Assembly (NCBI RefSeq): GCF_056712565.1
Contig: NZ_CM160072.1
Length of the DNA: 64,000 nucleotides
Direction: 5' to 3' (one strand)
Shown: positions 49,201-52,200 of the stretch, piece after piece
Layout: every line of letters begins with the position of its first letter
How positions within the stretch are numbered: the stretch's first letter is position 1
Made by a program: the position numbers

Positions 49201-52200
49201 GCTGTGTGCTGACGCTGCCAGCAACCGGTTCAGAATCCAACGCAGGCGCGGTGATCTCCCGTAAAACCACAGGCGACAAGCAGGCGTTCCATTCTGCCCA
49301 TGTTCAGCCCGTATTTGCCGTGCTCGATCCGGTTTATACCTACACCCTGCCGTCGCGTCAGGTGGCTAACGGCGTAGTGGACGCCTTTGTACACACCGTG
49401 GAACAGTATGTTACCAAACCGGTTGATGCCAAAATTCAGGACCGTTTCGCAGAAGGCATTTTGCTGACGCTGATCGAAGATGGTCCGAAAGCCCTGAAAG
49501 AGCCAGAAAACTACGATGTGCGCGCCAACGTCATGTGGGCGGCGACTCAGGCGCTGAACGGTTTGATCGGCGCTGGCGTACCGCAGGACTGGGCAACGCA
49601 TATGCTGGGCCACGAACTGACTGCGATGCACGGTCTGGATCACGCGCAAACACTGGCTATCGTCCTGCCTGCACTGTGGAATGAAAAACGCGATACCAAG
49701 CGCGCTAAGCTGCTGCAATATGCTGAACGCGTCTGGAACATCACTGAAGGTTCAGACGATGAGCGTATTGACGCCGCGATTGCCGCAACCCGCAATTTCT
49801 TTGAGCAATTAGGCGTGCCGACCCACCTCTCCGACTACGGTCTGGACGGCAGCTCCATCCCGGCTTTGCTGAAAAAACTGGAAGAGCACGGCATGACCCA
49901 ACTGGGCGAAAATCATGACATTACGCTGGATGTCAGCCGCCGTATATACGAAGCCGCCCGCTAAGCTTTTTACGCCTCAAACTTTCGTTTTCGGGCATTT
50001 CGTCCAGACTTAAGTTCACAACACCTCACCGGAGCCTGCTCCGGTGAGTTCATATAAAGGAGGAACGTATGGCTAATCCAACCGTTATTAAGCTACAGGA
50101 TGGCAATGTCATGCCCCAGCTGGGACTGGGCGTCTGGCAAGCAAGTAATGAGGAAGTAATCACCGCCATTCAAAAAGCGTTAGAAGTGGGTTATCGCTCG
50201 ATTGATACCGCCGCAGCCTACAAGAACGAAGAAGGTGTCGGCAAAGCCCTGAAAAATGCCTCAGTCAACAGAGAAGAACTGTTCATCACCACTAAGCTGT
50301 GGAACGACGACCACAAGCGCCCCCGCGAAGCCCTGCTCGACAGCCTGAAAAAACTCCAGCTTGATTATATCGACCTCTATTTAATGCACTGGCCCGTTCC
50401 CGCTATCGACCATTATGTCGAAGCATGGAAAGGCATGATCGAATTGCAAAAAGAGGGATTAATCAAAAGCATCGGCGTGTGCAACTTCCAGATCCATCAC
50501 CTGCAACGCCTGATTGATGAAACTGGCGTGACGCCTGTGATAAACCAGATCGAACTTCACCCGCTGATGCAACAACGCCAGCTACATGCCTGGAACGCGA
50601 CACACAAAATCCAGACCGAATCCTGGAGCCCATTAGCGCAAGGAGGGAAAGGCGTTTTCGATCAGAAAGTCATTCGCGATCTGGCAGATAAATACGGCAA
50701 AACCCCTGCGCAGATTGTTATCCGCTGGCATCTGGATAGCGGCCTGGTGGTGATCCCAAAATCGGTCACACCTTCACGCATTGTCGAAAACTTTGATGTC
50801 TGGGATTTCCGTCTCGACAAAGACGAACTTGGCGAAATTGCAAAACTCGATCAGGGCAAGCGTCTCGGTCCCGATCCTGACCAGTTCGGCGGCTAACGTG
50901 CAAATTCTCCCGGTGGCGGTAATGTTCCGCTACCGGACTTTTCAGAAATCATTTATTCCCCTCGCGTCCCGCCCGTTGCTACTCTTCCTTGTTCAGGAAT
51001 GCCAAATATAAGGACATCATCATGCAGAGCCGGAAGCTCTTAAAAGAACAACTCATCTATATCCGGGATAAACGCAACGGAGAGGTGAAAAACAGATGAA
51101 AATAATACTTCTGTTTTTAGCAGCCCTGGCAAGTTTTACCGTACACGCACAGCCCCCCTCACAGACCGTAGAACAAACAGTCCGGCATATTTATCAGAAC
51201 TATAAATCAGATGCCACTGCCCCTTATTTTGGTGAAACCGGAGAGCGAGCGATAACTTCTGCGCGTATTCAACAGGCGCTTACCCTGAACGACAATCTTA
51301 CGCTGCCGGGCAATATTGGCTGGCTGGATTATGATCCGGTTTGTGATTGTCAGGATTTTGGCGATCTGGTGTTAGAAAGCGTAGCGATAACCCAAACTGA
51401 CGCCGATCATGCCGATGCCGTTGTGCGCTTTCGTATCTTTAAAGACGATAAAGAAAAGACCTCGCAGACACTGAAAATGGTGGCGGAAAATGGTCGTTGG
51501 GTCATTGGCGATATTGTCAGCAATCATGGCAGCGTCTTACAAGCGGTTAATAGCGAGAATGAAAAAACGCTGGCCGCTATAGCTTCGTTGCAAAAAGAAC
51601 AGCCGGAAGCCTTTGTTGCCGAACTCTTTGAACATATTGCTGATTATAGCTGGCCGTGGACGTGGGTGGTTTCCGACTCTTACCGCCAGGCGGTCAATGC
51701 CTTCTATAAAACCACCTTCAAGACGGCCAACAATCCCGATGAAGATATGCAAATAGAACGGCAATTTATTTACGACAATCCGATCTGTTTTGGCGAAGAG
51801 TCGTTATTTTCACGCGTTGATGAAATTCGAGTCCTGGAGAAAACCACCGATTCCGCCCGCATTCATGTTCGCTTTACGCTGACCAATGGCAACAACGAAG
51901 AGCAAGAACTGATTTTACAGCGGCGCGAAGGTAAGTGGGAAATCGCTGATTTTATCCGCCCGAACAGCGGCAGCCTACTTAAGCAGATTGAGGCAAAAAC
52001 CGCCGCCAGATTAAAACAATGAGCTGAATTAAATAACAATTAGCCGGAACAATAAATAAAAGGGAACACTATATGAAAACGATTTTCACCGTGGGAGCTG
52101 TTGTTCTGGCAACCTGCTTGCTCAGTGGCTGCGTCAATGAGCAAAAGATCAATCAGCTGGCGAGCAATGTGCAAACATTAAATGCCAAAATCGCCCGGCT

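What the first reader, a model, noticed from the sequence alone, without database searches (positions are those of the whole stretch)
50025..50048. Stable stem-loop immediately upstream of dkgA within the yqhD-dkgA transcript
A 10-bp perfect inverted repeat with a 4-nt loop lies 20 bp upstream of the dkgA start and lacks a T-tract. yqhD and dkgA are co-regulated by YqhC, so the structure may set differential expression by partial termination or RNase processing/protection rather than acting as a full terminator.
Basis: seen in the sequence. Interest (0 to 1): 0.2.

Follow-up and report, generated by a model that had tools for sequence, protein, structure and literature searches.

The report
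Protective hairpin ending yqhD transcripts
The stem-loop between E. coli yqhD and dkgA is real, is kept by compensating mutations in all 73 enterobacterial sequences examined, and marks where published maps place the end of a shorter yqhD-only RNA, so it is an ordinary, largely catalogued kind of operon-internal RNA end/stability element.

Summary
CTCACCGGAG-CCTG-CTCCGGTGAG sits at 50025-50048, 20 nt before the dkgA ATG, with no T-tract and about -18 kcal/mol.

It is not chance. All 70 distinct Enterobacteriaceae yqhD-dkgA spacers carry a 5-13 bp hairpin at the same place, with 47 different arm sequences. Ten of 11 pairs show compensatory changes.

Published E. coli K-12 3'-end maps place RNA ends 3-9 nt after the stem. 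These ends depend on RNase II and PNPase. The operon still runs on to the dkgA terminator and is flagged as having skewed transcript abundance.

Best reading: a U-tract-less protective 3' stem-loop. It blocks 3'-to-5' exonucleases and defines a yqhD-only RNA, uncoupling yqhD from dkgA levels. Weak intrinsic termination cannot be excluded in E. coli, but 43 of 70 species have at most 2 U in the 8 nt after the stem.

Novelty is low.

One thing stays unexplained. A 32-nt block just upstream (49982-50013, inside Rfam ES173) is as conserved as codon positions 1-2 and always travels with the hairpin.

The parts
48801..49964 (+). yqhD coding sequence (NADPH-dependent aldehyde reductase), the upstream cistron
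   Evidence: ORF and translation. RefSeq annotation of identical DNA.
49967..50030 (+). Match to Rfam RF02753 'ES173 sRNA'. It contains a weak hairpin (HP1) and overlaps the first 6 nt of the finding's 5' arm.
   Evidence: 99 bits against a gathering score of 90, E = 8e-21. At the gathering score the family reaches only Escherichia among 20 genera tested.
49982..50013 (+). Highly conserved block CTTTCGTTTTCGGGCATTTCGTCCAGACTTAA, function unknown. It always lies 8-15 nt upstream of the hairpin.
   Evidence: Majority identity is 0.90, with sub-blocks at 0.94-1.00. Third codon positions of the flanking genes give 0.63-0.67. The HP1 pairing is compatible but shows no covariation.
50025..50034 (+). 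5' arm of the hairpin (CTCACCGGAG)
   Evidence: covariation.
50035..50038 (+). Loop (CCTG), variable in sequence and length (mostly 3-6 nt, up to 15) across species
50039..50048 (+). 3' arm of the hairpin (CTCCGGTGAG)
   Evidence: covariation.
50051..50057 (+). Zone of published steady-state RNA 3' ends, MG1655 3156605-3156611, which is +3 to +9 after the stem. It lies just before, and reaches the first base of, the dkgA Shine-Dalgarno.
   Evidence: TRS dominant positions 3156605/7/8. SEnd-seq: rnb stop 3156606, rnb start 3156610, pnp-dependent end 3156611. Offset window to MG1655 is +3106554.
50057..50063 (+). dkgA Shine-Dalgarno AAGGAGG
   Evidence: Sequence; conserved in the alignment.
50069..50896 (+). 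dkgA coding sequence (methylglyoxal reductase / aldo-keto reductase), the downstream cistron
50910..50943 (+). Operon-end intrinsic terminator after dkgA: stem CCGGTGGCGG...CCGCTACCGG plus TTTT, with the published 3' end at 50940 (MG1655 3157494)
   Evidence: Sequence. Term-seq primary 3' end. TRS primary terminus.

Best explanation
The inverted repeat is transcribed on the + strand as part of the YqhC-activated yqhD-dkgA mRNA. It folds into a stable 10-bp RNA hairpin of about -18 kcal/mol. It acts as a U-tract-less protective 3' stem-loop. Transcripts that are cut, or that terminate, further downstream are digested 3'-to-5' by PNPase. PNPase stalls about 9 nt after the stem (window 50057). 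RNase II then nibbles back to about +4 (window 50052). The product is a stable RNA that carries yqhD and the spacer but lacks the dkgA ribosome-binding site. Uncut read-through RNA carries dkgA to the terminator at 50940. The net effect is more, or longer-lived, yqhD message than dkgA message from one promoter. Shown here: the structure, its conservation and its covariation. Shown in published data: the 3' ends and their RNase dependence. Inferred: that the hairpin causes the stall, and that this sets the yqhD:dkgA ratio.
For: Structure.

Conservation: yqhD-dkgA synteny holds in all 80 species loci, and most spacers are about 100-110 nt.
- RNAalifold on 70 distinct spacers calls only this helix. 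Seven of its 8 pairs have compensatory changes.
- On my 11-pair structure, 10 pairs change on both sides. Cells paired are 87.6%, against 74.8% in shuffles and 30-55% when partners are slid. The covariation score is 0.457 against 0.231, and 0 of 500 shuffles reach it.
- Every species has a hairpin of 5-13 bp (69 of 70 have at least 7 bp), median -17 kcal/mol, with 47 distinct arm sequences.
- Salmonella enterica, Klebsiella and Cronobacter have it too.

Not a terminator by form: the mean is 2.4 U in the 8 nt after the stem, and 43 of 70 species have at most 2. The scan gives no hit.

Published 3' ends lie right after the stem, and the published fold is this hairpin.
- The RNase II stop at 3156606 holds 13% of ends in wild type and 2% in the rnb deletion, with the matching start at 3156610.
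- The end at 3156611 holds 8.7% of ends in wild type and 0 in the pnp deletion.
- The operon is flagged 'complex-operon', meaning an adjacent-gene FPKM ratio of at least 3, and has 2 TTS.
- The class is described in general by Dar and Sorek 2018.

The hairpin stays with the yqhD side when ERIC elements are inserted between it and the dkgA Shine-Dalgarno in 4 species. In 2 Buttiauxella a different, longer palindrome replaces it at the same spot. yqhD is induced 26-fold and dkgA 10-fold.
Against: - The RNase-mutant libraries were single replicates, and the pnp and rnb deletions are pleiotropic.
- The same study reports no RNase E-dependent end in this operon, so the event that starts downstream decay is unknown.
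- Term-seq by Adams et al. lists no 3' end in this spacer under their conditions.
- I did not see which gene is the more abundant in the 'complex-operon' call.
- The ends at +8/+9 are also where an intrinsic terminator would release RNA.
- Klebsiella and Raoultella have a further terminator-like hairpin directly after the yqhD stop codon, yet keep this hairpin. That hints at a role beyond protecting the yqhD end.
- The wobble test for strand (G-U against A-C in the stems) is weak: 13 against about 6 after removing spurious extensions.
Confidence: 0.62

Rival explanations
1. It is a weak intrinsic (Rho-independent) terminator. RNA polymerase itself releases a fraction of transcripts 7-9 nt after the stem, and RNase II only trims these ends by 4 nt.
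For: The stem is GC-rich with a tetraloop. The E. coli tail begins UU and has 4 U in 8 nt. The rnb start at 3156610 and the end at 3156611 lie +8/+9 from the stem, the classical release distance. The SEnd-seq-based operon table counts 2 TTS in the operon.
Against: There is no U-run; TRS records a maximum U-tract of 2. The consensus scan does not flag it. The end at 3156611 vanishes in the pnp deletion, which is not expected of a termination end. In 43 of 70 species the 8 nt after the stem hold at most 2 U, yet the hairpin is maintained by compensatory change. The conserved function is therefore not U-tract-dependent termination.
Confidence: 0.2
2. It is a leader element of dkgA. The hairpin at the 5' edge of the ribosome-binding site tunes dkgA translation, or protects a processed dkgA mRNA from 5'-end-dependent RNase E attack.
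For: The distance from stem end to ATG is tightly kept at 18-26 nt in 70 species, with a mode of 19-20. Klebsiella and Raoultella keep the hairpin although another hairpin already follows the yqhD stop.
Against: Four species carry an ERIC insertion of about 90-140 nt between the hairpin and the Shine-Dalgarno. The hairpin stays next to the upstream block, not next to the ribosome-binding site. No 5' ends, either RNase E-dependent or transcription starts, are reported inside the operon. Predicted Shine-Dalgarno sequestration by upstream spacer sequence is no greater than in shuffles: 0.21 against 0.19 unpaired, p = 0.18.
Confidence: 0.1
3. The hairpin is the 3' terminal stem of a stable, possibly trans-acting, RNA derived from the yqhD 3' UTR. 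This would be ES173 extended to about 85-90 nt, with the conserved block as its functional part. It is not exclusive of the best explanation.
For: Rfam ES173 matches 49967-50030. A sequence-invariant block followed by a covarying 3' hairpin is the conservation pattern typical of small RNAs. 3' ends map just after the hairpin. Block and hairpin always stay together.
Against: There is no U-tail for Hfq. yqhD and dkgA are absent from the supplements of a RIL-seq-based sRNA prediction study. No processed 5' end is reported. Most conserved bases lie in the arms of HP1, not in an open seed. I could not read the original ES173 paper.
Confidence: 0.12
4. It acts as DNA: a palindromic operator for a dimeric transcription factor inside the operon.
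For: It is a perfect 10-4-10 palindrome. Another 24-bp palindrome, at 48663-48686, serves the yqhD promoter.
Against: The half-site sequence is not conserved: there are 47 different arms, and even the CCGG core changes in step. Genomic SELEX found a single YqhC site, upstream of yqhD.
Confidence: 0.02

Closest known systems
U-tract-less protective 3' stem-loops at steady-state mRNA 3' ends (Dar and Sorek 2018, PMC6061677)
   Same: It is a stable stem-loop not followed by a U-rich stretch. A precise steady-state 3' end lies a few nt downstream. The ends depend on PNPase and RNase II.
   Different: That class was defined for ends of Rho-terminated transcription units. This hairpin lies inside an operon, 8 nt before the next gene's Shine-Dalgarno. 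Rho involvement is untested.
Selective RNA processing and stabilisation by intercistronic hairpins (for example the REP hairpins of malE-malF; genome-wide in Liu et al. 2023, PMC10667835)
   Same: An intercistronic hairpin stops 3' exonucleases, so the upstream cistron outlasts the downstream one. This very site is in that paper's tables.
   Different: It is a unique hairpin, not a REP/BIME or ERIC repeat, with one place per genome. No RNase E cut that would start the decay has been mapped here.
Rfam RF02753 ES173 sRNA
   Same: It is at the same locus and on the same strand. The model covers 49967-50030, including the conserved block and 6 nt of the 5' arm.
   Different: The model stops inside the hairpin and does not describe it. 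At its gathering score the family reaches only Escherichia, whereas the element is found in every Enterobacteriaceae genus sampled here.
Intrinsic (Rho-independent) terminators
   Same: It has a GC-rich stem with a tetraloop. 3' ends lie 8-9 nt after the stem.
   Different: It lacks the defining U-tract in E. coli and even more so in other genera. Most transcription must read through for dkgA to be co-induced.

Membership tests
Protective 3' stem-loop / exonuclease barrier (SRPS element) | Stable RNA stem-loop on the transcribed strand, without a following U-tract | tested here: met
   -17.8 kcal/mol, 10 bp, tail UUCAUAUA.
Protective 3' stem-loop / exonuclease barrier (SRPS element) | Steady-state RNA 3' ends a few nt downstream of the stem | tested here: met
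   Read from published tables, not measured by me. TRS gives 3156605/7/8. SEnd-seq gives 3156606, 3156610 and 3156611, which is +3 to +9.
Protective 3' stem-loop / exonuclease barrier (SRPS element) | The ends depend on 3'-to-5' exonucleases (PNPase, RNase II) | tested here: inconclusive
   The published tables say so: 13% against 2% in the rnb deletion, and 8.7% against 0 in the pnp deletion. The mutant libraries were single replicates.
Protective 3' stem-loop / exonuclease barrier (SRPS element) | Disrupting the stem shortens the upstream mRNA's life and changes the cistron ratio | not testable with these tools
   This needs mutants and half-life measurements. Indirect support: the 'complex-operon' flag and 26-fold against 10-fold induction.
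Intrinsic terminator | GC-rich hairpin | tested here: met
Intrinsic terminator | Run of U (at least about 5 of 8) directly after the stem | tested here: not met
   Not flagged by the scan. Published maximum U-tract is 2. The mean is 2.4 U of 8 across 70 species.
Intrinsic terminator | Factor-independent release in vitro | not testable with these tools
   Requires in vitro transcription.
Rfam RF02753 (ES173 sRNA) | Covariance-model score at or above the gathering score | tested here: met
   99 bits against 90 for 49967-50030. The hairpin itself (50025-50048) is outside the model except for 6 nt.
Rfam RF02753 (ES173 sRNA) | The model's secondary structure (HP1) is supported by covariation | tested here: inconclusive
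   84.9% of cells are paired, against 84.0% in shuffles. The arms are nearly invariant, so the test has no power.
REP/BIME or ERIC repeat elements | Many dispersed copies per genome with a family consensus | tested here: not met
   The median is one place per E. coli genome. ERIC copies appear next to it in only 4 other species, and an ERIC-like palindrome in its place in 2 Buttiauxella.
Transcription-factor operator palindrome | Half-site sequence conserved among orthologous loci | tested here: not met
   There are 47 distinct arms. The arms change in step so as to keep pairing.

The most novel reading that the evidence does not exclude
The hairpin is only the 3' half of a module of about 90 nt. 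The module is the near-invariant block 49982-50013 plus the covarying hairpin. It is under purifying selection as strong as at coding positions, is present in every enterobacterial sequence examined, and stays intact when insertions separate it from either gene. On this reading the module is a functional RNA in its own right: a 3'-UTR-derived regulatory RNA (a much wider ES173), or the binding site of an unidentified RNA-binding protein that controls yqhD/dkgA output during aldehyde stress.
Probability: 0.2. Interest if true: 0.55.

Novelty: new member of a known kind. Interest (0 to 1): 0.22.

Why it matters
yqhD and dkgA are the main inducible aldehyde reductases of E. coli. They are heavily used or deleted in metabolic engineering, for furfural tolerance, 1,3-propanediol and aldehyde products. 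The hairpin ends a yqhD-only RNA just before the dkgA ribosome-binding site. That explains why the two genes share a promoter but not an expression level. It also tells engineers that the spacer is not neutral. As biology it is one more well-supported example of operon-internal stoichiometry set by a protective stem-loop. Its unusual feature is conservation by compensatory change across a whole family. The invariant neighbouring block is the only part that could lead somewhere new.

Tried and rejected
1. Anti-Shine-Dalgarno pairing. MFE folds pair CCUC (49975-49978) or UUCGUCC (49999-50005) with the dkgA GGAGG. Across 70 species the Shine-Dalgarno is no more sequestered than with shuffled upstream sequence (0.21 against 0.19 unpaired, Wilcoxon p = 0.18). 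Variants of the block are not compensated in the Shine-Dalgarno. I rejected it as a composition effect.

2. Covariation support for the Rfam HP1 helix: none measurable.

3. Strand assignment by wobble pairs.
- Whole-region folds favour the minus strand slightly, but G/U-rich flanks confound this.
- Within the stems, G-U beats A-C by 13 to about 6. This is inconclusive.

4. Other Rfam families in 48500-51300: only chance-level snoRNA hits.

5. An internal promoter for dkgA. The scan gives no hit in the spacer, and published data give no internal transcription start.

6. Literature dead ends.
- The Raghavan 2011 (ES173) and Ju 2019 (SEnd-seq) papers are not held.
- No text supplements are held for Rend-seq, Herzel 2022 or Dar and Sorek.
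- The SMRT-Cappable-seq and RIL-seq prediction supplements do not mention these genes.
- No paper links yqhD with ProQ, CsrA, Hfq or CLIP in its main text.

7. Loci where yqhD and dkgA are apart. All 83 loci fetched keep the pair, so the test 'which gene does the hairpin follow' could only be done through insertions.

Full report
**The observation**

The window is Escherichia coli. The 221 bases around the finding are at least 99% identical in 5,406 of 5,412 matching complete genomes and lie between genes annotated yqhD and dkgA. MG1655 annotation gives yqhD 3155355-3156518 and dkgA 3156623-3157450. So window coordinate + 3106554 = MG1655 coordinate.

The sequence shows:
- CTCACCGGAG at 50025-50034
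- CCTG at 50035-50038
- CTCCGGTGAG at 50039-50048

These are ten perfect pairs. They end 20 nt before the dkgA ATG (50069) and 8 nt before AAGGAGG (50057-50063). The tail, TTCATATAAAGG, has no T-run, and the terminator scan does not flag it. The hairpin alone is -17.8 kcal/mol. The 107-nt spacer folds at -33.8 kcal/mol, z = -4.06. The window has 8 distinct perfect hairpins of at least 10 bp, against 0.67 expected from shuffles. The description is correct in every detail.

**Is it more than chance?**

I fetched 80 species-level loci encoding close DkgA relatives.
- All have yqhD immediately upstream.
- 72 have a spacer of about 100-120 nt.
- In every one of 70 distinct spacers there is a hairpin at the same place: 8-15 nt after a conserved CUUAA and 18-26 nt before the ATG.
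- Stems are 5-13 bp (69 of 70 have at least 7 bp), the median is -17 kcal/mol, and there are 47 different 5'-arm sequences.

RNAalifold on the MAFFT alignment calls this helix and nothing else. Seven of its 8 pairs show compensatory changes. Counting an 11-pair version gives:
- 10 pairs changed on both sides
- 87.6% of cells paired, against 74.8% in column shuffles and 30-55% with slid partners
- covariation score 0.457 against 0.231, with 0 of 500 shuffles reaching it

Salmonella enterica, Klebsiella pneumoniae and Cronobacter, fetched through YqhD, have it as well. The hairpin is therefore selected as a structure, not as a sequence. That excludes a protein operator on DNA.

**What experiments already show**

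Three published resources bear directly on the site.

(a) TRS (PMC10687069) lists a significant yqhD 3' terminus.
- The peak spans 3156601-3156614, with dominant positions 3156605, 3156607 and 3156608.
- It appears in three tables, with adjusted p down to 5e-105.
- It is annotated 'Alternative primary in TU'.
- The table's own RNAfold structure is exactly this hairpin (-18.8 kcal/mol), and its maximum U-tract is 2.
- Its Signal of 0.89-0.98 is in the range the same table gives to classical terminators such as thrC (0.93). I did not verify what the statistic means quantitatively.

(b) Liu et al. 2023 (PMC10667835; SEnd-seq of RNase mutants) list:
- 3156606 as an RNase II trimming stop, with 13% of ends in wild type and 2% in the rnb deletion
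- its paired start at 3156610, a trimming distance of 4 nt
- 3156611 as an end present in wild type (8.7%) and absent in the pnp deletion

The operon 3155302-3157493 has one TSS, two TTS and no RNase E ends. It is flagged a 'complex-operon', defined as adjacent genes whose FPKM differ at least 3-fold. The mutant libraries were single replicates.

(c) Term-seq by Adams et al. lists only the operon-end terminus, 3157494, and nothing in the spacer. The internal end is therefore condition- or method-dependent.

In addition, yqhD and dkgA are induced 26- and 10-fold by glycolaldehyde (PMC6115493). YqhC has a single genomic binding site, upstream of yqhD.

**Mechanism**

The ends lie at +3 to +9 from the stem and depend on RNase II and PNPase. 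There is no U-tract. This is the behaviour Dar and Sorek described for protective stem-loops that stop 3' exonucleases. It is also what Liu et al. call selective RNA processing and stabilisation.

I therefore read the hairpin as a 3'-exonuclease barrier. It defines a stable RNA holding yqhD but not the dkgA ribosome-binding site, since the ends fall at 50051-50057 and the Shine-Dalgarno starts at 50057. Read-through RNA carries dkgA to the terminator at 50910-50943.

Partial intrinsic termination remains possible in E. coli, because the +8/+9 ends match the release distance. However, 43 of 70 species have at most 2 U in the 8 nt after the stem, so termination cannot be the conserved function.

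A role in dkgA translation is not supported.
- Predicted Shine-Dalgarno sequestration equals that of shuffles.
- In four species an ERIC element of about 90-140 nt sits between the hairpin and the Shine-Dalgarno, while the hairpin stays where it was.
- In two Buttiauxella a different, longer palindrome occupies the same spot. This suggests that any strong hairpin will do there.

**What is next to it**

Rfam's ES173 sRNA model (RF02753) matches 49967-50030 at 99 bits against a gathering score of 90. It ends inside the 5' arm. At its gathering score the family reaches only Escherichia among the genera tested.

Inside that match, 49982-50013 (CTTTCGTTTTCGGGCATTTCGTCCAGACTTAA) is strikingly conserved:
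- majority identity 0.90 overall, with two sub-blocks at 0.94-1.00
- 0.63-0.67 at third codon positions of the flanking genes
- 0.92-0.97 at codon positions 1-2

Its two halves can pair (Rfam's hairpin), but there is no covariation to test this.

Block and hairpin are never separated. ERIC insertions fall downstream of the hairpin. The extra terminator-like hairpin of Klebsiella and Raoultella falls upstream of the block.

I found no promoter, no transcription start, no RNase E end, no RIL-seq record and no known motif that explains the block. It remains unexplained and is the basis of the 'novel case'.

**Verdict**

- The element is a new, well-conserved member of a known kind: a protective, operon-internal 3' stem-loop.
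- Its 3' ends and its fold are already in published supplementary tables, though no study has treated it on its own.
- Interest is low. The adjacent invariant block deserves a note.

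Noticed in passing
window 49982-50013: A 32-nt non-coding block (CTTTCGTTTTCGGGCATTTCGTCCAGACTTAA) is as conserved across 70 Enterobacteriaceae species as codon positions 1-2 of the flanking genes. It always lies 8-15 nt upstream of the hairpin. No function was found.
   Followed up: partly
window 48663-48686: A perfect 10-4-10 palindrome, ATTTCTCCAGCACTCTGGAGAAAT, abuts the yqhC start codon, about 63-86 nt upstream of the published yqhD TSS (3155302/3). It is the known '24-bp palindrome' of the YqhC-activated yqhD promoter (PMC6115493).
   Followed up: partly
window 47679-47704: A perfect 10-bp hairpin, CGTTCCCGGTTGCTGTACCGGGAACG, lies between the convergent genes yghB (ends 47668) and yqhC (ends 47708). 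It is probably a shared, bidirectional terminator or protective structure.
   Followed up: no
L038, L041, L043, L078 (spacer upstream of position 2501): ERIC (enterobacterial repetitive intergenic consensus)-like elements are inserted between the hairpin and the dkgA Shine-Dalgarno in Pluralibacter, Enterobacter and two Citrobacter species. I identified them as ERIC from memory of the consensus, not by a database match.
   Followed up: partly
L074 and L076 (about 2420-2470); L064 (2229-2500): In two Buttiauxella the hairpin is replaced at the same position by a longer ERIC-like palindrome. In a Buttiauxella MAG the hairpin is duplicated on either side of an insertion of about 150 nt.
   Followed up: no
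L083 3680-3725 (Klebsiella pneumoniae); L079 2370-2410 (Raoultella terrigena): An extra strong hairpin lies directly after the yqhD stop codon, with a T-run in Klebsiella. It sits upstream of the conserved block, whose first half is altered there. The downstream hairpin is kept but is weaker in Raoultella.
   Followed up: no
window 50910-50943: This is the dkgA operon-end intrinsic terminator, with the published 3' end at 50940 (MG1655 3157494). Just after the stop codon the window reads ...TAACGTGC..., where the published MG1655 flank in Adams et al. reads ...TAACATGC..., so the window is not MG1655 itself.
   Followed up: partly
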